From: an uncultured Candidatus Saccharibacteria bacterium
GTDB lineage: Bacteria; Patescibacteriota; WWE3; UBA101185; UBA10185
Direction: 5' to 3'
Assembly (NCBI GenBank): GCA_964385105.1
Contig: CAYLMU010000001.1
Coordinates: forward strand, 194,252-258,251
Length of the DNA: 64,000 nucleotides
Shown one piece after another: positions 35,634 through 48,116 of this stretch (positions within the stretch are counted from its first letter, which is position 1; every line of letters starts with the position of its first letter). The notes beneath the pieces were generated by a model. It was not told where the DNA came from and ran no database searches. It saw only the letters and a program-made list of their open reading frames with translations. Position numbers and translations under genes: made by a program.

Positions 35634-36467
35634 TTAAGCAAGTTCTTTGAGTACTTCTTCAATTAAGGTAGGCAGTGATTCAATATCTTCGTGTGTATAA
35701 TCATATCCTAAAACATTTAAACAAGAAAACAATACTCCAATATTTGAGTAAATATTTTTTGCATATGTACAAGCTACTAAACTATGTACAAGAACGTTTC
35801 CTCCTATTTCGCCGATTCTTGATTTACTGCACCCAACAGGGCATCCGGAACATGAAGGAAAAGTATCTTTACTTACTGTCATCTTGCCGACTTCGTTCAA
35901 AAGCTTGTGATACAGTTCTTCGTACTTTTCTTTATTTATTATTTTTTCGGTTTTGGTACCCGTTACAACAAGTCCGAATATATTTTTTTTGTCGAATTTA
36001 TCTTCGAGAAAGGTTTCGGGGGTTAAAAAGAAATCATCAAGCAAAAATTTTCCGGCCGCTTTTTTTATAATACTTCTTTTTCCGGGAAGTCCAAGTGAAG
36101 TTATTTCGGCTTCTTGTGATTTAAAACTGACTATTTCATTTTGAATATCAAGTATTACAGGCTGGGGGGATTTTCCATGGATTACAATTGAATCTACTCC
36201 CGAAAAAGCCAAACGTAATGAAAGTGATCCGCCGATATAGATATCTTCTACAACGCCCTCACTATAAAAAACTATAGATGTTTTTGAAACATAAGGAAAT
36301 TTTCCGTTTAAAGGCCCAACCGAGATAATAACCGGATCTTTGTCGATGTTATCAAGCAGCAGTTTTAAACCCAAGCCTACACCTCCGATATAAGGGTTGA
36401 GTTCAGGCAAAGATTTTACTTCAGATTCATGCGTACTTAAATTTATATAAAGTATTTTTTTGTGCAT
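35634..36467 (-). CDS. Truncated aldehyde:ferredoxin oxidoreductase-like protein: AFOR N-terminal domain plus a C-x2-C-x3-C motif, lacking the tungstopterin-binding domains (277 aa)
   Basis: Collinear with the AOR N-domain: ILYINLSTHESEVKSLPE / IGGVGLGLKLLL / VIISVGPLNGKFPYVSKTSIV / VDSIVIHGKSPQPVILDIQNEIVSF / NIFGLVVTGTK. C-terminal CSGCPVGC resembles the AOR [4Fe-4S] ligand motif. Confidence 0.6.
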   Translation of the reverse strand: MHKKILYINLSTHESEVKSLPELNPYIGGVGLGLKLLLDNIDKDPVIISVGPLNGKFPYVSKTSIVFYSEGVVEDIYIGGSLSLRLAFSGVDSIVIHGKSPQPVILDIQNEIVSFKSQEAEITSLGLPGKRSIIKKAAGKFLLDDFFLTPETFLEDKFDKKNIFGLVVTGTKTEKIINKEKYEELYHKLLNEVGKMTVSKDTFPSCSGCPVGCSKSRIGEIGGNVLVHSLVACTYAKNIYSNIGVLFSCLNVLGYDYTHEDIESLPTLIEEVLKELA

Positions 36468-36468
36468 A

Positions 36469-36750
36469 TTATTCCAGTAAATGCTCCTCGTCTACCTCGG
36501 AAGATTCTTCAACAGTAAAAACGCCTGTTGGGCATATGTTCTTTATTTTTTCAACTTTTAGCTTATTTACCGTTTTATCCATGTCAATAGTAAAAATCAC
36601 CTCACCAATCATATTCTCTTCCTGGTTTCTAAATATTCTTATCGGAGAGCCTTCTAACCCAAGTTTATTTAATTGTCTTTGAACTTCAATAACGCAAAGC
36701 TCACACCCTATGCAATTTTCGGGAAATGTAATTTTAATAATTTTAGCCAT
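36469..36750 (-). CDS. Small ferredoxin-like protein (putative 4Fe-4S)
   Basis: CIGCELC plus a distal CP (NICPTGVF) motif. 93 aa. Overlaps the pgk stop by 8 nt and abuts the mini-AOR gene. Confidence 0.55.
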   Translation of the reverse strand: MAKIIKITFPENCIGCELCVIEVQRQLNKLGLEGSPIRIFRNQEENMIGEVIFTIDMDKTVNKLKVEKIKNICPTGVFTVEESSEVDEEHLLE

Positions 36751-37720
36751 TAGCCTCCTTTTTGTAACCTAGGGCTTCAATCCCCGGTAAAGTTTCATTT
36801 ACAATGAATTCAAGCATTGCACTTCCGCCTGTAGACACCCAGTTTATATAATTTAACGTGTTTGTGCTTTTTAATGCAGAAATTGTGTCTCCGCCGCCTA
36901 CTACCCAATACGAGTTTGAGTTGGGGATTAATGAAGCAATTTTATTTGTGCTCGTTGCAAATTCCGGAACTTCAAATTGCCCTAATGGTCCTGCCCATAC
37001 AATAGTGTTTGAGTTTGTTATTATTTCTATATATTGCGCGGTTGTTTCAGCGCCAATATCGCGGGGATTATTTTGTTCGTCATAAATATAGTCTGTAGGA
37101 ATATGTAAATTTTGAGGAATTTGCTCATCCCAGTTTAATCCGATTAAGCCACCAAGCAAAACATTGTTTGCTATTTTAATAAATTTTGAAACTACCGGTT
37201 TTTTACTCTCAAGCTTTGCTCCTCCTACCAATACTGTAAGTGGTTTATTTGGCGATTTTATAACATTGCTTAATACCTCCACTTCTTTTTGCAGGTTTAA
37301 TCCGGCGTATGAAGGCAGTAAACCCGCTACCCCAACAATAGAAGCATGTTTTCTATGTGAGGTAGCAAAGCTTTCATTAATATAAATATCTGCTTTGGAT
37401 GCCAGTTCTTTTGAAAACTCGTTATCATTTGATTCTTCTCCGGGATTAAAACGCAGATTTTCTAAAAGTTCATATTGGTTTATGCCTAAATAAGTATCAA
37501 AATATGGTTTTAGTTTTTGCGTAGAAAGGTTGGAATCCTCTGAACCACCAGGTCTTCCGATGTGCCCAGCTATTACCGGAATAACTTTATTTTCTATCAA
37601 ATAGTTTAATGTAGGAAGCCCCGATTCAAGCCTAAAGTAATCGTTATCGGGTACATCAAGATCCATTCGTACCAGAGCTTTCATACCGGGCGTTAATTTT
37701 GCTTCTGTAAGTAGTCGCAT
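36743..37720 (-). CDS. pgk: Phosphoglycerate kinase (short, 325 aa)
   Basis: N-terminal VRMDLDVP...IPVIAGHIGRPGG. LENLRFNPGEE. C-terminal nucleotide-binding region GGGDT-like (VVGGGDTISAL). Confidence 0.8.
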   Translation of the reverse strand: MRLLTEAKLTPGMKALVRMDLDVPDNDYFRLESGLPTLNYLIENKVIPVIAGHIGRPGGSEDSNLSTQKLKPYFDTYLGINQYELLENLRFNPGEESNDNEFSKELASKADIYINESFATSHRKHASIVGVAGLLPSYAGLNLQKEVEVLSNVIKSPNKPLTVLVGGAKLESKKPVVSKFIKIANNVLLGGLIGLNWDEQIPQNLHIPTDYIYDEQNNPRDIGAETTAQYIEIITNSNTIVWAGPLGQFEVPEFATSTNKIASLIPNSNSYWVVGGGDTISALKSTNTLNYINWVSTGGSAMLEFIVNETLPGIEALGYKKEANG

Positions 37721-37780: not shown

Positions 37781-39880
37781 ATGGCGACATTAAAAGAATT
37801 GCGTGAGATTCACTTACAGAAATTAAACAGGCTAAAAGAGCTGGGAATTGATCCGTTTCCTGCACGTGTTAAAAAAGATTTTGAAAATGCACATGTAACT
37901 TCTAATTTTGAAGAATTTGAAGGTAAGACTATAAGTTTGGCGGGCAGAATTGTTTCATACAGAGAACATGGAGGTCTAGTTTTTATAGATATTAAAGACC
38001 AGTCGGGAAAAATTCAGGTTTATGTAAAAAAAGAAACACTTAAACCCACAAATGCTAAGCAACAAACTTTAGGGTTTGAAGATTTATCTTTATTGGATGT
38101 TGGAGATTATATTGAAGTAACAGGTGAGATAACAAAAACAAAAGCAGGTGAGATTTCAATAATGCCGGGTGGGTTAAGAATTTTGTCAAAGACTTTAAGG
38201 CCGCTACCTGAAGAGCTAAATAACAAAGAAACCAGAATGAGAAGGCGTTATGTTGATACTAAAGTTAACGAGGATGTTTTTGACAGATTTGTTCGAAGAG
38301 CTAAATTTTGGGAAGCGCACCGTAAATTTTTAAACAGTAAAGGGTTTTTAGAAATTAATATTCCTGTTTTAGAAAATATTCCGGGTGGGGCAGATGCAAC
38401 ACCTTTTGTTACACACATGGATGCAATTGACCAGGACTTTTTCTTAAGAATTTCACAAGAATTGTATTTAAAGAGACTTGTAGGAGGAGGTTATGAAAAA
38501 GTTTATGAAATTGGCCCTAGATTTAGAAATGAAGGATTGTCTGATGAACATTTGCCCGAACACATTGCTATGGAATTTTATTGGGCATATGCAAGTTGGG
38601 AAGAAGGAATGAAGCTAATTCAAGATTTATTTAACTATATTCTTGATGAAGTTTATGAAGGTAAAAGAAAGTTTTCAATTCGGGGTTTTGACGTTGATTT
38701 TACCGGAGATTGGGAAGTTATCGATTTTGCCGAAGTTATGAAAGAAAAATACAAAATTGATGTTCATAGTACCACGGTTGATGAAGTAGCAAAAATTTGT
38801 AAACAAAATGGAATTGAAGATGATTTTGCACAAAATCTGCATAGAGGAATTGATAATCTTTGGAAAAATTTGCGCCGTGAAATTGCAGGACCGGCGTTTT
38901 TAGTTAATCATCCAAAATATTTATCTCCGTTGGCTAAAGCAAAGGCGCATGAACCGCATGTTACCGAACGATTTCAGCCGATTATTGCGGGTAGTGAACT
39001 TGGTAACGGCTGGTCTGAAATTAATGACCCGGTCGATCAACTTGAACGGTTTAAAGAACAACAAAATTTGCGTGATGCAGGTGACGATGAAGCACAATGG
39101 CTAGATATTGATTATGTTGAAATGCTTGAGTATGGAATGCCTCCTACTTTTGGTTATGGTCATAGCGAACGTGTTTTTTGGTTTTTAGAAGATGTAAGCG
39201 CACGTGAAGGGGTTCCGTTTCCTCAGTTAAAGCATGTGGTAGATGACACAACATTAGAAATATATAATTTACCGCGTCAAAACACACTGCTTGCTATAAA
39301 CCCAAACTTAGATGATATCAATGAAAACGGCAATTTACCGTCACGGGAAGAGGCAGAATTTTTGCTAAATAAACATGTTAAAGACGACTATCAAAAATTG
39401 CACGCAAAAATGGTTGCATCAGCTTTAGAACAATATGCCGGGAAATTTAAAGCTAATAATGAGTTATGGTTTATAGCAGGACTTTTGCACGACCTGGATT
39501 ATTTTGAGTATCCCGATGAACATCCGAAAAAATCACTGGAGTGGTTTAAAGAAAAAGAGTACTCGGAAGCTTTAATGCATGCAATTGCTGCACATGCATA
39601 CCAAAGAACCGGCGTGGAGCCAAAAACAAAACTTGCAGCAGCTCTTATTGCTACGGATGAACTTTCAGGATTGTTGTATGCTTATTCGCTAATGCGACCG
39701 GAAGGTTTTAAGGGAATGAGTGCAGGCTCAGTAAAAAAGAAATTTAAAGATAAAGCATTTGCCCGAACCGTTGACCGAAATGACGTTTTATACGGCATAG
39801 AAAAACTTGGTGTGGATTTTGATGAGCATGTAAATTTTTTGATTAGTGTTTACAGTGAAATAGATGAGTTAAAAAAGTAA
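37781..39880 (+). CDS. lysS: Lysyl-tRNA synthetase (class II) fused to a C-terminal HD-domain phosphohydrolase (~200 aa)
   Basis: The N-terminal ~500 aa carry an OB anticodon-binding domain and class II motifs (FLEINIPVLE; RISQELYLKRL; GSELGNGWSEINDP; GMPPTFGYGHSERV). The C-terminal extension carries an HD signature: H(AKM)...LLHDLDY...HAIAAH...DELSG. Confidence 0.85.
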   Translation: MATLKELREIHLQKLNRLKELGIDPFPARVKKDFENAHVTSNFEEFEGKTISLAGRIVSYREHGGLVFIDIKDQSGKIQVYVKKETLKPTNAKQQTLGFEDLSLLDVGDYIEVTGEITKTKAGEISIMPGGLRILSKTLRPLPEELNNKETRMRRRYVDTKVNEDVFDRFVRRAKFWEAHRKFLNSKGFLEINIPVLENIPGGADATPFVTHMDAIDQDFFLRISQELYLKRLVGGGYEKVYEIGPRFRNEGLSDEHLPEHIAMEFYWAYASWEEGMKLIQDLFNYILDEVYEGKRKFSIRGFDVDFTGDWEVIDFAEVMKEKYKIDVHSTTVDEVAKICKQNGIEDDFAQNLHRGIDNLWKNLRREIAGPAFLVNHPKYLSPLAKAKAHEPHVTERFQPIIAGSELGNGWSEINDPVDQLERFKEQQNLRDAGDDEAQWLDIDYVEMLEYGMPPTFGYGHSERVFWFLEDVSAREGVPFPQLKHVVDDTTLEIYNLPRQNTLLAINPNLDDINENGNLPSREEAEFLLNKHVKDDYQKLHAKMVASALEQYAGKFKANNELWFIAGLLHDLDYFEYPDEHPKKSLEWFKEKEYSEALMHAIAAHAYQRTGVEPKTKLAAALIATDELSGLLYAYSLMRPEGFKGMSAGSVKKKFKDKAFARTVDRNDVLYGIEKLGVDFDEHVNFLISVYSEIDELKK

Positions 39881-39934
39881 AGGAGTAAGAAAGGCCGGTT
39901 CTTTTTAAAAGTTTTTGACCAGTCGTACTCCTTT
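39879..39934. terminator. Long imperfect hairpin (9-bp perfect arms AAAGGAGTA / TACTCCTTT with a 38-nt internally palindromic spacer) between convergent genes; candidate bidirectional terminator or structured element
   Basis: Seen directly in the sequence. The inner part contains GGCCGG and CTTTTTAAAAG sub-palindromes. Confidence 0.3.
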
Positions 39935-39948
39935 GTTTAGTGCATAAC

Positions 39949-40182
39949 TTACGTTATAACTTTTTCTACTTCCCAATCAGGATTTTCATCTGCTACCTTT
40001 TTTGCGCGTGGTACTGCGTAGAATCCGGTGATTTCCCCTTTTCGGTACCACCGTTTATCATCATTATTCCACCCGTGAAGGATTCCTCCAATTGTTGTGA
40101 CTATACAATAGTCACCTAAAGTTACAAAGTGCAAAGGCAATTTACTCATATGAACAATCTGTACTATAGCTTTTGGTTTCAT
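39949..40182 (-). CDS. Small protein, paralogue 3 of a tandem GW-motif family (77 aa)
   Basis: Shares ...hGW-x3-(K/R)-W... with the two upstream ORFs (HGWNNDDKRWYRKGE). It overlaps the next ORF's stop by 4 nt. Confidence 0.45.
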   Translation of the reverse strand: MKPKAIVQIVHMSKLPLHFVTLGDYCIVTTIGGILHGWNNDDKRWYRKGEITGFYAVPRAKKVADENPDWEVEKVIT

Positions 40183-40427
40183 TGCTGTCCTTCTCTTATA
40201 TGTTTAGAGACTTCAACAAGTTGTTTTACCGCATTTCTGGCTTCTCGTGTGGTAGAAAAGCCTAAAAGGCACCCCTGTTCGCTAGTGGATATCCATTTTT
40301 TTCCTGTCCAACCCTGTAAGCCGTTTTGAGATTCGCCTATAATAACAAAACTTTTATCTGATGGCGTCTTAAACCAGGGTACAAGAGCTCGGTGTAAAAA
40401 CCTAACTTTTACAACATTTTTTGACAT
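40179..40427 (-). CDS. Small protein, paralogue 2 of the tandem GW-motif family (82 aa)
   Basis: QGWTGKKWISTSEQ, then F-x4-EA-x4-K helix, parallel to its neighbours. Confidence 0.45.
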   Translation of the reverse strand: MSKNVVKVRFLHRALVPWFKTPSDKSFVIIGESQNGLQGWTGKKWISTSEQGCLLGFSTTREARNAVKQLVEVSKHIREGQQ

Positions 40428-40430
40428 GCA

Positions 40431-40676
40431 TTACCTCTTTTGTGAATAAACCGGCATAGCATATTCTTTAAGCTCTTCTTGTGCCGTTTCTTTGGAATCA
40501 AATGGTTTTAATGAGTGAAATGCACTTGTAGTCCAAGCCCTTCCTACAGTCCACCCGTGATTAAAAGGACTAAGGATGTAGAACTGTTCGTCGGTACCGC
40601 CTGGCTTGAAATGCCGCTCTCTGGCTTCTTTTCCGTTCAAAATCTCATAGGCAGAAGAATCATATATTTTGTTCAC
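40431..40676 (-). CDS. Small protein, paralogue 1 of the tandem GW-motif family (81 aa)
   Basis: HGWTVGRAWTTSAF, then FDSKETAQEELKEY, parallel to its neighbours. Confidence 0.45.
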   Translation of the reverse strand: MNKIYDSSAYEILNGKEARERHFKPGGTDEQFYILSPFNHGWTVGRAWTTSAFHSLKPFDSKETAQEELKEYAMPVYSQKR

Positions 40677-40776
40677 TTAAATACCTCCTTTAATTCAAAA
40701 TCTATGATATTTACACAAAATTTATAAAATCGGTGTGATACGGCAAAATTCTCTCCTTACTAAGTTTCCGAACTCA

Positions 40777-40805
40777 TTGACAAAAACTTTACCTGTAGTT
40801 ATAAC
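40777..40805 (+). promoter_or_regulatory. Sigma70-type promoter TTGACA-N17-TATAAC upstream of serS
   Basis: cattgacaaaaactttacctgtagttataac. The -10 is about 50 nt upstream of the serS ATG. No T-box leader is evident. Confidence 0.5.
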
Positions 40806-40855
40806 TAAACTTAGTAAAAAATGCAATGGAAAAGACCTCCTTTTGAGATATTTTT

Positions 40856-42184
40856 ATGCTCGATATTAAATTTATTAGAGAAAACCCCGATATTGTAAAA
40901 AAAGCAGTTGAAGAAAAGCACCTTTCACAGGTAGTAAATATAGATGAAATTATTAATTTGGATGAATTATATAGAAATAAGCTAAGAATTGTTGAGGAAC
41001 ACCGCGCTTTACGCAACCAGCTTTCGGATAATATTTCAAAAGTAGACGAAGAAACAAGACAAAAACTCATAAACGAGGCTTCACAAGTAAAGGAAGAGTT
41101 GTTTACAAAAGAACAAGAGCTTGCTGAGATTGAATCTCAACTTACATCAAAATTGCTAAAAGTTCCAAATATTATTGCGCCTGATGTACCATCAGGTAAA
41201 GATGAAAGTGAAAACGTTGTAATAAGAAGTTGGGGTGAGCCAAAAACATATGATTTTGAGCCAAAAGACCATGTAGAACTTGGTGAAAAGCTTGATTTAA
41301 TTGATATTCCAACGTCGGCAAAAGTTTCGGGTTCAAGATTTAATTATTTAAAAAATGAAGCTGTTTTGTTGCAATTTGCACTTATTCAATTTGTTTTTGA
41401 CACACTAACCAACAAAGAAATTATTTCAGAACTTGCTGAGCGTGTAGGAAATAATTCGAACAACGCTTTTATACCGGTTTTGCCTCCGGTGATTATTAAG
41501 GCCGAAGTTGCAAAGAAAATGGACAGATATGATCCTATCGAAGATAGATATTATTATGAGGATGACGATGTAATGTTTGTGGGGAGTGCTGAGCATAGCA
41601 TTGGCCCGATGCATATGGATGAAATTTTAAATCAAAGCCAACTGCCGTTAAGATACATTGGTTATTCAACAGCATTTAGACGTGAAGCCGGCTCATATGG
41701 AAAAGATACAAAAGGCATTTTAAGACGTCACCAGTTTGATAAGCTTGAGATGGAAATTTTTTCTACTCCTGAAAGCGGATTGGCCGAGCAAGAACTTATT
41801 GTTGCAATTCAGGAATATTTGTTACAGCAATTACAACTTCCTTATCAGGTGATGATGATATGTACCGGAGACATGGGCAAACCCGATTATCGCCAGATTG
41901 ATATAAATACCTGGATGCCGGGAGAAAATGCTTACCGTGAAACTCACACTTCTGATTATATGACTGACTTTCAGGCAAGAAGACTTAACACTCGTTATAA
42001 AACAAGTGAGGGCACTAACGAATATGTTCATATGAATGATGCAACTGCATTTGCTATAGGAAGAACACTTATTGCTATCCTAGAAAATTATCAGCAAAAA
42101 GACGGCTCAATAAAAATACCTGAAGTGTTGCAGAAATATATGAACGGTATTAAAGAAATAAAAGAAAGTGGTAACATAGAGTAA
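40856..42184 (+). CDS. serS: Seryl-tRNA synthetase
   Basis: N-terminal coiled-coil arm. Class II motifs (RFNYLKNEAVLLQFAL; FRREAGSYGKDTKGILRRHQFDKLE; GLAEQELIVAIQE...). Confidence 0.9.
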   Translation: MLDIKFIRENPDIVKKAVEEKHLSQVVNIDEIINLDELYRNKLRIVEEHRALRNQLSDNISKVDEETRQKLINEASQVKEELFTKEQELAEIESQLTSKLLKVPNIIAPDVPSGKDESENVVIRSWGEPKTYDFEPKDHVELGEKLDLIDIPTSAKVSGSRFNYLKNEAVLLQFALIQFVFDTLTNKEIISELAERVGNNSNNAFIPVLPPVIIKAEVAKKMDRYDPIEDRYYYEDDDVMFVGSAEHSIGPMHMDEILNQSQLPLRYIGYSTAFRREAGSYGKDTKGILRRHQFDKLEMEIFSTPESGLAEQELIVAIQEYLLQQLQLPYQVMMICTGDMGKPDYRQIDINTWMPGENAYRETHTSDYMTDFQARRLNTRYKTSEGTNEYVHMNDATAFAIGRTLIAILENYQQKDGSIKIPEVLQKYMNGIKEIKESGNIE

Positions 42185-46691: not shown

Positions 46692-48116
46692 TTATTCTAG
46701 TTGTTTGTATTGGGCAATGGCTTTAATTAATTCTTTAGCCATTGTGTCATACATCGCAGGTGCATAGCCGGCTCTTGCTACACTTTCCATATTTGCCATT
46801 ACTTCTTGGTAATATTTTAACTCACTTTTCAAAAATTCAATTCTTGTTCTAACTTCAGGTATATCTTGGAATTCTTTTTCCAAACTAATAACATCATCGA
46901 TGAAATCTCCAGCCATTAACTCAAATTGTCTGTTCAGTTCATTTTTTGACTCCTCAGAATTGAGATTTGCAACAATTGTATTTTTAACTTCTGTTAATGC
47001 GTTTAATACATTCTCAGGTGAGTCTTCCTGTTCCTCATTTGTTATGGATTCAACTTCCGGGGAGTTTCCATTTGGGCTAAATTTAGTTTGTTCAGCATTC
47101 ATTCTTGCTTTTCTTGCTCTTGGTGCTTCCATATATTCTCTCATTCTTTTTTCTTTTGGACTTTCTGTTGGTTCAGGTTCAATCACTTGACCATTTTGGT
47201 TTTGTAGAGCTTCTGCAACTGCTGCCCTAACAATATCTGCCAAACTCTCTTGGCTTTCTGCTCGTTCTTGGGCAATTTGCTCTTTTAGTTTTTCTATTTC
47301 GGCTTGACGTTTAGCATCTGCTTCGGATAGTTGTTGCTGAAATTTTTCCTGTTCAGCCTTTCGTGCTGCTTCTTGCTCTTCTAGTTGTTTTTTTAAGCTC
47401 TCAATTTGTGCTGATTGTTGCTCATTAATACTTTCTATAGATGTAAGTTTTTCTTTGATTTCTGCATTTGTTGTTTTTAGCGCTTCAGTAATTTCTGTAT
47501 TAGTTTGCGGGCCGTATCTTAATTTGCTGTAATCATAAGGTTCTTTCTTTTCCCGTTCTTTTGGTTTGAGTACATTTTTATTAAATCGCTCCTGACGTAC
47601 CAATTCTTCTCCTTTTGATTGAATCAACTTTTTTAAATTTGGGTCTTTTGTCAGGTCAATCTTTGTTCCTTTATAGTCTAGTTTATTAAGTTCTTCTAGA
47701 CCTCCCATTCTTCTTACTGCTTCGGGGCCACCTGATTCTCTTACCCAAATTTTTGCCAATTCCGTTACTTCGTCATTACCTCGTAAATTTTTTACTTCTT
47801 CTATTGTTGGTCTGAATAATTTATTTTTAAATCTTTCCAAATGCTCACGCATACTAATTCTAGTTTCTTCAACAGCTTGGTTTATTTCGTTTGTTTTTTC
47901 CGGATGTTCTCTTGAAGCTTGTGCCGCTGCTTCTTGGGTCACCTGTACTGCACTCGCCGTGCGTATGGCGGCATTTTCAGCAGCTTCTTGTGGAGATAGA
48001 GTTTCATTATTTTCTCTTTCTGTATCTCCCTGGTCTGTATTTTCCGGAGGATTTTCAGGTTCTGCACCAGTCGCTGAGTGTCCATTCATTTTATATTCTG
48101 CATCCACTATAGCCAT
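46692..48116 (-). CDS. Hypothetical coiled-coil protein (474 aa; Glu/Gln/Lys/Ala-rich)
   Basis: Long ORF with extended heptad-like charged repeats (QLEEQEAARKAEQEKFQQQLSEADAKRQAEIEKLKEQIAQERAE). No enzymatic motif. Confidence 0.5.
   Translation of the reverse strand: MAIVDAEYKMNGHSATGAEPENPPENTDQGDTERENNETLSPQEAAENAAIRTASAVQVTQEAAAQASREHPEKTNEINQAVEETRISMREHLERFKNKLFRPTIEEVKNLRGNDEVTELAKIWVRESGGPEAVRRMGGLEELNKLDYKGTKIDLTKDPNLKKLIQSKGEELVRQERFNKNVLKPKEREKKEPYDYSKLRYGPQTNTEITEALKTTNAEIKEKLTSIESINEQQSAQIESLKKQLEEQEAARKAEQEKFQQQLSEADAKRQAEIEKLKEQIAQERAESQESLADIVRAAVAEALQNQNGQVIEPEPTESPKEKRMREYMEAPRARKARMNAEQTKFSPNGNSPEVESITNEEQEDSPENVLNALTEVKNTIVANLNSEESKNELNRQFELMAGDFIDDVISLEKEFQDIPEVRTRIEFLKSELKYYQEVMANMESVARAGYAPAMYDTMAKELIKAIAQYKQLE

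What the first reader, a model, noticed from the sequence alone, without database searches (positions are those of the whole stretch)
39949..40676. Tandem triplet of ~80-aa paralogues sharing a (H/Q)GW-x3-(K/R)W motif next to lysS and serS
Three consecutive minus-strand ORFs of 81, 82 and 77 aa are tightly packed, with a 4-nt overlap and a 3-nt gap. They are highly diverged overall but conserve the same architecture. A hydrophobic beta-like stretch is followed by HGWTVGRAW / QGWTGKKWIS / HGWNNDDKRWY, then an aromatic residue and a short E/A/K helix. Deep divergence with retained tandem order suggests an old, selectively maintained small-protein family. It could have an SH3/GW- or KOW-like fold and could be a nucleic-acid or cell-wall binding module, or a small toxin/antitoxin-like set. 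I cannot place it in a named family from sequence alone.
Basis: seen in the sequence. Interest (0 to 1): 0.6.

Follow-up and report, generated by a model that had tools for sequence, protein, structure and literature searches.

The report
Orphan three-gene small-protein insertion
Three back-to-back genes for ~80-residue proteins sit on a ~1-kb insertion that splits an otherwise conserved lysS–serS gene pair in a CPR/Patescibacteria genome; they look real and are probably old duplicates of each other, but no relative was found in any public sequence collection searched, so their function is unknown.

Summary
Three minus-strand ORFs of 81, 82 and 77 aa tile 39949-40676 with a 3-nt gap and an ATGA overlap. 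Each has a Shine-Dalgarno-like site and an [HQ]GW…W motif at residues 37-47.

They are probably real genes. The own frame is the best of six, and AlphaFold gives pLDDT 72-76. Paralogy is probable but weak: A-B p≈1e-3, B-C p≈1e-3 to 1e-2, A-C not significant. GW is very rare in this proteome (6 in 18,745 aa).

The "old, maintained family" reading is not supported. Word-index searches and an exhaustive HMMER profile search of 1.84 billion representatives found only the three proteins themselves. The nearest relatives (SerS 64-67% identical) have lysS-HD-serS abutting with no insert.

So this is a ~975-bp lineage-specific insertion carrying an orphan operon. Pfam, PHROGs, NCBIfam, PADLOC and Foldseek (PDB, BFVD) give no family. 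SH3/GW, KOW and toxin-antitoxin are unsupported.

The only lead is a weak profile-level and fold-level resemblance to DUF2188 and NDUFS4, sharing a "GW hairpin-strand-helix" unit. That is resemblance, not membership. Function is unknown; I guess a soluble binding module. Interest is modest.

The parts
40431..40676 (-). ORF A, 81 aa, GTG start; pI 6.8; motif HGWTVGRAW at residues 40-48
   Evidence: Own frame is the best of six, codon score 0.127. AF2 pLDDT 71.6, topology beta-alpha-beta-beta-beta-alpha. Only a self hit in the databases.
40179..40427 (-). ORF B, 82 aa, ATG start 3 nt after A's stop; pI 10.2; motif QGWTGKKW at residues 38-45
   Evidence: AGAGG lies 6 nt upstream, inside A's 3' end. 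Codon score 0.169. AF2 pLDDT 76.4. Only a self hit.
39949..40182 (-). ORF C, 77 aa, ATG overlapping B's stop (ATGA); pI 8.8; motif HGWNNDDKRW at residues 36-45
   Evidence: GAAGGA lies 5 nt upstream. Codon score 0.259. Only a self hit.
40679..40691 (-). Strong Shine-Dalgarno site AAAGGAGGTATTT, its GGAGG core about 7 nt before A's GTG
   Evidence: This 13-mer class occurs only twice in 64 kb, against 0.04 expected.
39879..39934 (.). Hairpin between the convergent lysS-HD and ORF C, followed on the minus strand by ACUUUUUU; likely a bidirectional terminator
   Evidence: Inverted repeat I18. RNA fold -18.7 kcal/mol, z=-3.2, 0 of 200 shuffles as stable. Not called by the simple terminator scan because the loop is too long.
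40677..40855 (.). 179-bp AT-rich spacer between ORF A and the divergent serS. It should hold at least the serS promoter (a promoter for the triplet may lie here or inside serS), and it contains a perfect 11-bp inverted repeat (40757-40767 / 40807-40817)
   Evidence: GC 0.29-0.31. Inverted repeat I22. No significant RNA fold on either strand. No Rfam hit.
40722..40826 (-). Candidate fourth mini-ORF (34 aa, TTG start) preceded by a second copy of the AAAGGAGGTNTTT site at 40831-40843; unverified
   Evidence: Read. The 13-mer is duplicated only here (D10, 102). No family hit.
39881..40855 (.). The whole ~975-bp lineage-specific insertion between the stop of lysS-HD and the start of serS
   Evidence: In L001, L003, L047 and L048 (SerS 64-67% identical) the HD gene's stop abuts the serS ATG, with the same downstream genes. 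tblastx and blastn of the insert find nothing in the 100 loci or elsewhere in the window.
37781..39880 (+). Flank: lysyl-tRNA synthetase fused to a C-terminal HD domain (699 aa)
   Evidence: Pfam tRNA-synt_2, tRNA_anti-codon and HD.
40856..42184 (+). Flank: seryl-tRNA synthetase (442 aa), followed by a methyltransferase-like gene and uppP as in the relatives
   Evidence: Pfam; synteny.

Best explanation
The feature is a ~975-bp insertion, seen only in this lineage, placed exactly between the stop codon of lysS-HD and the start codon of serS. Those two genes abut in the nearest sampled relatives.

The insertion carries, on the opposite strand, one small operon of three translationally coupled genes (A, B, C). 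Each has its own Shine-Dalgarno-like site. The operon ends at a hairpin shared with the convergent lysS.

The products are soluble, non-secreted proteins of about 80 aa with a compact beta-sheet-plus-C-terminal-helix domain. The three are most likely ancient or fast-evolving tandem duplicates of one gene. What survives is the fold-defining skeleton: a hydrophobic strand, a Trp-rich [HQ]GW...W hairpin, a strand ending in Phe, and an amphipathic helix.

Inferred, not shown: the exposed aromatic hairpin is a binding surface for protein or nucleic acid. The three diverged copies act together, for example as a hetero-oligomer, in an accessory role. That role is possibly derived from a mobile element or a conflict system, and is unrelated to aminoacylation.

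The domain shares a 'GW hairpin-strand-(S/T)xxEA helix' unit with DUF2188 and NDUFS4-type proteins. It is not demonstrably a member of either family.
For: Shown:
- ORF geometry and motifs.
- The own frame is the best of six for all three ORFs, and only 0.2-1.1% of alternative-frame windows score as well.
- Only 0.95% of alternative-frame stop-to-stop segments reach 77 codons, yet three of them tile 728 bp here. All three have SD cores at the right spacing, against a background of 7.8% per site.
- GC skew switches sign over the triplet, as it does for other minus-strand genes.
- AF2 gives medium-confidence folded models (pLDDT 71.6 and 76.4) with the same order of elements.
- Paralogy statistics and the rarity of GW in this proteome.
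- The joint profile of A+B+C matches outside families better than any single copy does. That is what one expects if the alignment captures real shared features.
- Insertion: synteny in L001, L003, L047 and L048.
- Orphan status.
- Terminator-like hairpin.
- No hydrophobic segment reaches transmembrane range.
- Remote resemblance: hhalign of A1 against DUF2188 gives P=4.5e-4, and none of 200 column shuffles comes near. Against NDUS4 it gives P=2.1e-3, with 0.33% of shuffles reaching that score. Reversed controls give nothing.
- With the A model, Foldseek's first 27 PDB hits are all NDUFS4-family chains; the best has E=0.06, and TM scores normalised to the query are up to 0.51.
Against: - Codon scores lie in the lowest 2-11% of real-gene windows, and GC3 is raised (0.29-0.38 against 0.26).
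- There are no orthologues, so no conservation or dN/dS test of coding or selection is possible.
- There are no expression data.
- A-C similarity is not significant, and BLASTP sees none of the pairs.
- A chance match of similar strength exists (C against RpoB).
- The AF2 models of A and B shared one 3-sequence alignment, so their similar topology is not independent evidence.
- The B model does not hit NDUFS4.
- Single sequences are not significant against the DUF2188 or NDUS4 HMMs.
- Pfam reports neither family.
- NDUS4 against DUF2188 scores as well as the triplet does against either. The shared unit may therefore be a generic recurrent motif.
- The functional part (binding module, hetero-oligomer) is pure inference.
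Confidence: 0.6

Rival explanations
1. The three ORFs are real genes but are not paralogues. They would be three unrelated orphan ORFs that happen to share a GW dipeptide and similar length.
For: The A-C comparison is not significant. BLASTP finds no pair. Single-sequence hhalign gives P=0.03-0.12. A chance hit of comparable score exists (C against RpoB).
Against: - A-B p≈7e-4 to 1.5e-3 and B-C p≈1e-3 to 1.4e-2 for pre-specified neighbour comparisons.
- GW occurs only 6 times in 18,745 aa, yet it sits at residues 37-42 of all three.
- The full-length multiple alignment is collinear.
- The combined profile is sharper than its members.
Confidence: 0.2
2. The ORFs are not genes. On this view the insert is non-coding (a degraded mobile-element scar or a regulatory spacer) and the open frames are accidental.
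For: There is no homologue anywhere. Codon scores are at the low end for this genome. Antisense ORFs of 77 codons or more do occur in this AT-rich genome, 57 in the alternative frames.
Against: - Three ORFs tile 728 bp end to end with coupled stop/start junctions and three SD sites.
- The own frame is the best of six in each case.
- The strand skew fits coding.
- The models are foldable, with pLDDT above 70 from a 3-row alignment.
- A terminator-like hairpin lies right after C.
Confidence: 0.12
3. The proteins are extremely diverged members of the DUF2188 (PF09954) / NDUFS4 (PF04800) type of small alpha/beta domain, that is, a known superfamily triplicated here.
For: hhalign P=4.5e-4 (DUF2188) and 2.1e-3 (NDUS4), with GW, Phe and the helix Ala in register and clean shuffle and reversal controls. 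Foldseek places the A model on NDUFS4 chains at E=0.06. The reference sets were verified as PF09954 and PF04800.
Against: - Pfam hmmscan finds neither family.
- Single sequences are not significant.
- The B model gives no NDUFS4 hit.
- HHalign probabilities are only 13-33%.
- I picked both families from a fold-search hit and from memory of the motif, so the P-values are optimistic.
- The DUF2188 C-terminal half (IH..dG.I...syG.DP.PP) is absent.
- RMSD in the Foldseek matches is 9-10 A.
Confidence: 0.3
4. The cassette is a toxin-antitoxin, anti-phage or anti-defence module carried in by a mobile element.
For: The genes are small, tightly coupled and lineage-specific. They were dropped into a housekeeping operon on the opposite strand and have slightly foreign codon usage.
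Against: - No PADLOC, Pfam, NCBIfam or PHROGs hit.
- No phage, plasmid or IMG/VR relative.
- No integrase, transposase or terminal repeats at the insert.
- Partners in toxin-antitoxin pairs are not normally paralogues of each other (general knowledge).
Confidence: 0.08
5. The proteins are GW/SH3b-type cell-wall-binding modules or KOW-like nucleic-acid-binding modules.
For: The profile gives a weak echo of the strand-turn-GW piece of staphylococcal amidase repeat domains (4epc_A, four stretches, E=2.5).
Against: - That match is not significant.
- No Pfam SH3/GW/KOW hit even at E<=10.
- No SH3-like fold among the Foldseek hits.
- No signal-peptide-like or membrane segment (and by eye).
- The modules are separate ORFs, not repeats in one secreted protein.
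Confidence: 0.03

Closest known systems
DUF2188 (Pfam PF09954), small uncharacterised proteins of bacteria, plasmids and phages
   Same: Size class is similar (60-85 aa). The order of elements is the same: hydrophobic strand, (G/E)W hairpin, strand, then a helix beginning (S/T)xxEA. hhalign gives P=4.5e-4 over 42 columns.
   Different: Pfam's HMM does not match. The conserved C-terminal half of DUF2188 (ElvIH..dGqI..dSyG.DPfPP) is missing. Single sequences are not significant. DUF2188 has no known function or solved structure, so nothing mechanistic can be transferred.
NDUFS4 / NDUS4 family (Pfam PF04800), accessory subunit of complex I in mitochondria and alpha-proteobacteria (PMC8161149), also found as plasmid-borne bacterial genes
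   Same: It shares 'PLMGW(T)..' followed about 14-16 residues later by 'F(S/P)(T/D)xxxA' and a helix, then a short strand. hhalign gives P=2.1e-3. The AF2 model of A retrieves only NDUFS4 chains at the top of the PDB list (E=0.06, query-normalised TM up to 0.51).
   Different: There is no Pfam match. The B model does not retrieve it. RMSD is 9-10 A. There is no complex I context in the window. The genes are triplicated and shorter than NDUFS4.
GW modules / SH3b repeats of Gram-positive surface proteins (e.g. staphylococcal amidase R domains, PDB 4epc)
   Same: The strand-turn-GW piece and the module size of about 80 residues. The profile echo is at E=2.5.
   Different: The match is not significant. 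GW sits mid-domain here, not near the C-terminal end. There is no secretion signal. The units are separate genes rather than repeats in one chain. A C-terminal helix is predicted.
Lineage-specific ORFan gene clusters in CPR/Patescibacteria genomes (large fraction of genes of unknown function: PMC6744442, PMC9132574)
   Same: Small genes with no homologues in a reduced genome of an uncultivated lineage.
   Different: This one is a coupled trio of probable paralogues. It interrupts a conserved, abutting aaRS gene pair at a precisely definable insertion point.

Membership tests
Internal family (A, B, C are paralogues) | Pairwise similarity beyond chance between neighbours | tested here: met
   A-B: SW p=0.0015, phmmer 7e-4, beats 386 of 386 real decoys. 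B-C: p=0.0135, phmmer 1.2e-3, decoy rank 0.3-1.6%.
Internal family (A, B, C are paralogues) | All pairs significant | tested here: not met
   A-C: p=0.28 (SW) and 0.065 (phmmer). BLASTP finds no pair.
Internal family (A, B, C are paralogues) | Shared rare motif in the same position | tested here: met
   [HQ]GW at residues 36-42 of all three, followed 4-6 residues later by W. GW occurs only 6 times and the full motif 0 times in 18,745 aa of the window's other proteins.
DUF2188 (PF09954) | Match to the Pfam HMM at gathering score | tested here: not met
   No hit even at E<=10. Bona fide members score 67-95 bits.
DUF2188 (PF09954) | Profile-profile similarity | tested here: inconclusive
   hhalign score 23.9, P=4.5e-4, probability 33%. 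Shuffled controls reach at most 13.6. But NDUS4 against DUF2188 scores the same.
DUF2188 (PF09954) | Conserved C-terminal IH..dG.I...syG.DP.PP segment | tested here: not met
   Absent on direct comparison of A, B and C with L109-L114.
NDUFS4 / NDUS4 (PF04800) | Match to the Pfam HMM at gathering score | tested here: not met
   No hit. Plasmid homologues score 77-118 bits.
NDUFS4 / NDUS4 (PF04800) | Profile-profile similarity | tested here: inconclusive
   hhalign score 21.2, P=2.1e-3, probability 13.5%. 0.33% of column shuffles reach it.
NDUFS4 / NDUS4 (PF04800) | Same fold | tested here: inconclusive
NDUFS4 / NDUS4 (PF04800) | Association with complex I (nuo genes in the genome) | not tested
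   Only 10 of the window's genes were annotated and none is a nuo gene. The rest of the 468,751-bp contig is not available here.
GW module / SH3b | Pfam SH3/GW-type HMM match | tested here: not met
   No hit at E<=10. The PDB profile echo is at E=2.5 only.
GW module / SH3b | Secreted or surface protein with a signal peptide | tested here: not met
   No N-terminal hydrophobic signal-like segment by eye. Maximum 19-residue hydropathy is 0.02, 0.37 and 1.44. This is a simple test, not a dedicated predictor.
KOW motif | Pfam KOW HMM match | tested here: not met
   No hit.
Toxin-antitoxin / defence system | Match of any component to known TA or defence families | tested here: not met
   Pfam, NCBIfam, PADLOC and PHROGs: nothing at or below threshold.
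Toxin-antitoxin / defence system | Toxicity and neutralisation phenotype | not testable with these tools
   Needs expression experiments.

The most novel reading that the evidence does not exclude
A, B and C found a previously unseen small-protein family confined to one unsampled CPR lineage. The family would be a deep branch of a wider 'GW hairpin-strand-helix' superfamily that also unites DUF2188 and the complex I subunit NDUFS4. The three copies would assemble into a hetero-oligomeric adaptor. Their insertion, with its own promoters and possible antisense overlap with the serS 5' end, would have rewired expression of the lysS-serS aminoacyl-tRNA synthetase operon.
Probability: 0.07. Interest if true: 0.55.

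Novelty: new variant of a known kind. Interest (0 to 1): 0.3.

Why it matters
If real, this is a clean, datable example of how a streamlined CPR genome gains new genes. The insertion point is exact, inside a conserved and abutting aaRS gene pair, and the new genes then diverged until their kinship is almost erased.

It would also add a data point to the question of whether DUF2188 and NDUFS4-type domains belong to one ancient small-domain superfamily.

Otherwise it is one more ORFan cluster, of which CPR genomes have many. With no orthologues and no functional handle, its practical value is limited until sister genomes or expression data appear.

Tried and rejected
1. Close-homologue searches. 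All three word-index searches returned self hits only. Each protein is a singleton cluster on one contig. The look-up of encoding contigs had no record.

2. Exhaustive HMMER with the A+B+C profile. The only extra hit, P0004, is a 387-aa repetitive translation artefact. Rejected.

3. Synteny search. I looked for copies in 46 genome and 54 metagenome serS loci with tblastn, hmmsearch, phmmer and tblastx. Nothing scored better than E≈0.1.

4. The weak C match to an alpha/beta-hydrolase 'LLILHGWDSNSDRW' (L052, L059; E=0.17-0.39). Rejected as the generic strand-HG-W oxyanion motif. A degraded hydrolase could not give three copies.

5. The Pfam DUF4357 hit for B (E=0.026, 14.9 bits against a cutoff of 38.4), and the NCBIfam BirA and TIGR04086 hits (E≈0.06-0.09). 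All are far below cutoff and were rejected.

6. Foldseek of the B model against PDB and BFVD. Nothing scored better than E≈0.75, and TM is at most about 0.57.

8. Mobile-element signatures. There are no convincing terminal repeats or target duplications around the insert and no similarity elsewhere in the window.

9. Rfam. No RNA family in the spacer or anywhere in the window. The spacer folds no better than shuffles.

10. An IMG/VR scan with the alignment was impossible because no stretch is conserved enough. The single-protein scans were negative.

11. The composition profile shows no marked GC anomaly for the insert (0.37-0.41 against 0.33-0.41 in the flanks).
Full report
**1. The observation**

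The window has three consecutive minus-strand ORFs:
- A, 40431..40676, 81 aa, GTG start.
- B, 40179..40427, 82 aa.
- C, 39949..40182, 77 aa.

A's stop and B's ATG are separated by 3 nt. B's stop and C's start overlap as ATGA. The quoted peptides HGWTVGRAW, QGWTGKKWIS and HGWNNDDKRWY are all present. The spacing from GW to the next Trp is 4 residues in A and B and 6 in C.

The flanking genes are a lysyl-tRNA synthetase fused to an HD domain (37781..39880, + strand) and a seryl-tRNA synthetase (40856..42184, + strand). A methyltransferase-like gene, uppP and secA follow (Pfam).

**2. Are they genes?**

- Each ORF scores best in its own frame out of six under a codon model trained on 41 long ORFs of the window. 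The scores are 0.13, 0.17 and 0.26, against -0.85±0.45 for alternative frames. Only 0.2-1.1% of alternative-frame windows do as well.
- The scores are nevertheless in the lowest 2-11% of real-gene windows (0.44±0.15). GC3 is raised, at 0.29-0.38 against 0.26.
- Only 0.95% of alternative-frame stop-to-stop segments reach 77 codons, yet three such ORFs tile 728 bp here with coupled junctions.
- All three have Shine-Dalgarno cores at the correct spacing: AAAGGAGG for A, AGAGG for B and GAAGGA for C. The background for such a core is 7.8% per site.
- GC skew turns negative across the triplet, as for other minus-strand genes.
- A hairpin lies 14 nt after C's stop and is followed by ACUUUUUU. Its energy is -18.7 kcal/mol, z=-3.2, and none of 200 shuffles is as stable. 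It overlaps the end of the convergent lysS, so it is a plausible bidirectional terminator.
- AlphaFold2 with only the three sequences as alignment gives medium-confidence folded models. A has pLDDT 71.6 and pTM 0.60. B has pLDDT 76.4 and pTM 0.64. Both show N-terminal strand(s), a three-strand meander containing the GW hairpin, and a C-terminal helix.
- The proteins are hydrophilic to neutral. pI values are 6.8, 10.2 and 8.8, and no segment is in transmembrane range.

I judge them real genes with about 85% confidence. The missing piece is any orthologue or expression evidence.

**3. Are they paralogues?**

- Smith-Waterman against 2000 shuffles gives A-B z=4.4 (p=0.0015), B-C z=3.2 (p=0.0135) and A-C not significant.
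- phmmer for a single comparison gives A-B 7e-4, B-C 1.2-1.6e-3 and A-C 0.065.
- Against 386 real 80-residue segments from this window, A-B beats all of them and B-C lies at 0.3-1.6%.
- BLASTP reports no pair.
- C has an equally strong chance match to RpoB (SW=53). Pairwise scores alone therefore do not settle the question.
- The motif argument is stronger. Trp makes up 0.63% of the window's proteome, and GW occurs 6 times in 18,745 residues. [HQ]GW or GW-x(3-6)-W never occurs outside the triplet. All three ORFs have it at residues 36-47.
- The three-way alignment is collinear over the full length, with nine invariant columns.
- The joint profile matches outside families better than any single member does.

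I put paralogy at about 75%.

**4. Distribution**

- Each protein is a singleton. The three word-index searches of 5.8 billion clusters returned only self hits, on one 468,751-bp contig from NCBI and Logan.
- An exhaustive HMMER search with the three-sequence profile against 1.84 billion representatives returned A, B, C and one repetitive artefact.
- tblastn against phage and plasmid collections was negative. So were pattern scans of IMG/VR.
- SerS was used to fetch 46 genome and 54 metagenome loci. The organism is a Patescibacteria/CPR bacterium. Its nearest sampled relatives have SerS only 64-67% identical (L001, L003, L047, L048).
- In those four loci the order is greA, lysS, a 67-aa ORF, a 181-aa HD gene, serS, a methyltransferase-like gene and uppP, all on one strand. 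The HD stop codon abuts the serS ATG.
- In several more distant relatives lysS itself abuts serS (L055, L057, L075).
- None of the 100 loci contains anything similar to A, B or C.
- The 975 bp from 39881 to 40855 are therefore an insertion specific to this lineage. It sits exactly at the junction of two adjacent, co-directional housekeeping genes, and its genes are on the opposite strand.
- Because the nearest relatives are distant, the insertion is only dated to 'after that split'. It need not be recent. This reconciles the deep divergence among the copies with their absence elsewhere.
- No integrase, terminal repeats or target duplication mark the insert. Its GC content is not anomalous.

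**5. What family?**

Pfam, PHROGs, NCBIfam and PADLOC give nothing at or near threshold. The profile against all PDB sequences gives only E=0.85 and E=2.5. The second is a faint echo of the strand-turn-GW piece in staphylococcal amidase repeat domains. Foldseek with the better model (B) finds nothing in PDB or BFVD.

Foldseek with the A model puts NDUFS4-family chains in the first 27 places. These include the bacterial members 8qby_Q and 2lju; 2jya ranks 32nd. The best has E=0.06 and probability 0.63. Query-normalised TM is 0.34-0.51 and RMSD is 9-10 A.

I followed this lead as follows:
- The recalled human NDUFS4 core was validated against the PDB.
- It was used to collect plasmid-borne bacterial homologues, which were verified as PF04800.
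- hhalign of the A+B+C alignment against this set gives score 21.2, P=2.1e-3 and probability 13.5%. GW, the Phe and the helix Ala are in register. 0.33% of column-shuffled controls reach that score.

A second candidate recalled from the motif, DUF2188, was tested in the same way:
- Bona fide PF09954 members were taken from plasmids.
- hhalign gives score 23.9, P=4.5e-4 and probability 33%. The maximum of 200 shuffles is 13.6.
- Reversed-profile controls give nothing.

Against membership:
- Single sequences are not significant against either HMM.
- Pfam's own models see nothing.
- The DUF2188 C-terminal half is absent.
- NDUS4 against DUF2188 scores just as well (24.9, P=2.9e-4).

The honest reading is that all three share a 'GW hairpin-strand-(S/T)xxEA helix' unit. 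That unit may reflect a very deep relationship or may be a recurrent motif. This is resemblance, not membership, and neither family offers a transferable mechanism. DUF2188 is uncharacterised and has no solved structure. NDUFS4 is a structural accessory subunit of complex I, present in mitochondria and alpha-proteobacteria (PMC8161149).

**6. Mechanism**

Shown: a compact, translationally coupled three-gene unit with its own ribosome-binding sites and a terminator-like hairpin, on an insertion.

Inferred:
- Transcription starts in or beyond the 179-bp AT-rich spacer shared with the divergent serS.
- The products are soluble small alpha/beta domains.
- Their conserved, unusually Trp-rich hairpin is a binding surface.
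- The three diverged copies act together in an accessory role unrelated to aminoacylation.

I hold the structural and evolutionary part at about 0.6 and the functional guess at no more than about 0.25. Toxin-antitoxin or defence, cell-wall GW/SH3b and KOW readings have no support.

**7. Novelty and interest**

ORFan genes are common in CPR genomes (PMC6744442, PMC9132574). A specialist would not be greatly surprised.

The distinctive points are these:
- The exact insertion point inside a conserved aaRS pair.
- The probable ancient triplication.
- The faint link to DUF2188 and NDUFS4.

With no orthologues and no functional handle, interest is modest (0.3).

Noticed in passing
window 40831-40843 and 40722-40826 (minus strand): A second copy of the ribosome-binding 13-mer AAAGGAGGTNTTT. 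The word occurs only twice in 64 kb against 0.04 expected, and both copies are in this spacer. This copy lies 9 nt before a TTG that opens a 34-aa ORF (MHFLLSLVITTGKVFVNEFGNLVRREFCRITPIL). It could be a fourth mini-gene or a leader peptide. The site is only 13 nt from the serS start on the other strand.
   Followed up: partly
window 40966-40995 (minus strand, inside serS): This is the best sigma-70-like site for the minus strand (TCAACA-18-TATAAT, 10 of 12 matches). It lies antisense within the first 140 nt of serS. A transcript starting there would overlap the serS 5' end before reading into the triplet.
   Followed up: no
window 40757-40767 / 40807-40817: A perfect 11-bp inverted repeat (TTACTAAGTTT / AAACTTAGTAA, 39 nt apart) lies in the spacer between ORF A and serS. 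It could be an operator or a hairpin. The word is not repeated elsewhere in the window.
   Followed up: partly
window 37781-39880: LysRS is fused in frame to an HD-domain module (699 aa). The nearest relatives (L001, L003, L047, L048) encode lysS, a 67-aa ORF and a separate 181-aa HD protein. More distant relatives (L006, L007) also have long 684-704-aa lysS genes.
   Followed up: partly
window 46692-48116 (minus strand): A 474-aa ORF between secA and a HAD hydrolase gene has no Pfam domain at E<=1e-5.
   Followed up: no
window 35634-36467 (minus strand) and 36743-37720 (minus strand): A 277-aa protein matches only the N-terminal domain of aldehyde:ferredoxin oxidoreductase. The phosphoglycerate kinase is 325 aa, and its Pfam PGK match comes in three separate stretches (profile length 379).
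   Followed up: no
window 1-64000: No Rfam family reaches its gathering score anywhere in the 64 kb. That means no tRNA, rRNA, riboswitch or T-box leader, despite two aaRS genes.
   Followed up: no
loci L102, L105, L108 (plasmids): NDUS4-family (PF04800) genes are widespread on plasmids of alpha-proteobacteria and Acinetobacter (81 records). In three of the eight loci fetched they sit next to Hsp20 genes, and in the two Acinetobacter loci next to a cation:proton antiporter gene, which looks like a stress-linked context outside complex I. HHalign also links NDUS4 and DUF2188 at P=2.9e-4.
   Followed up: partly
window 40068-40078 and 40550-40560: The HGW codons of A and C are identical at the DNA level over 11 nt (TCACGGGTGGA on the coding strand), although A and C are the least similar pair. 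This may be a trace of common descent or of gene conversion.
   Followed up: no
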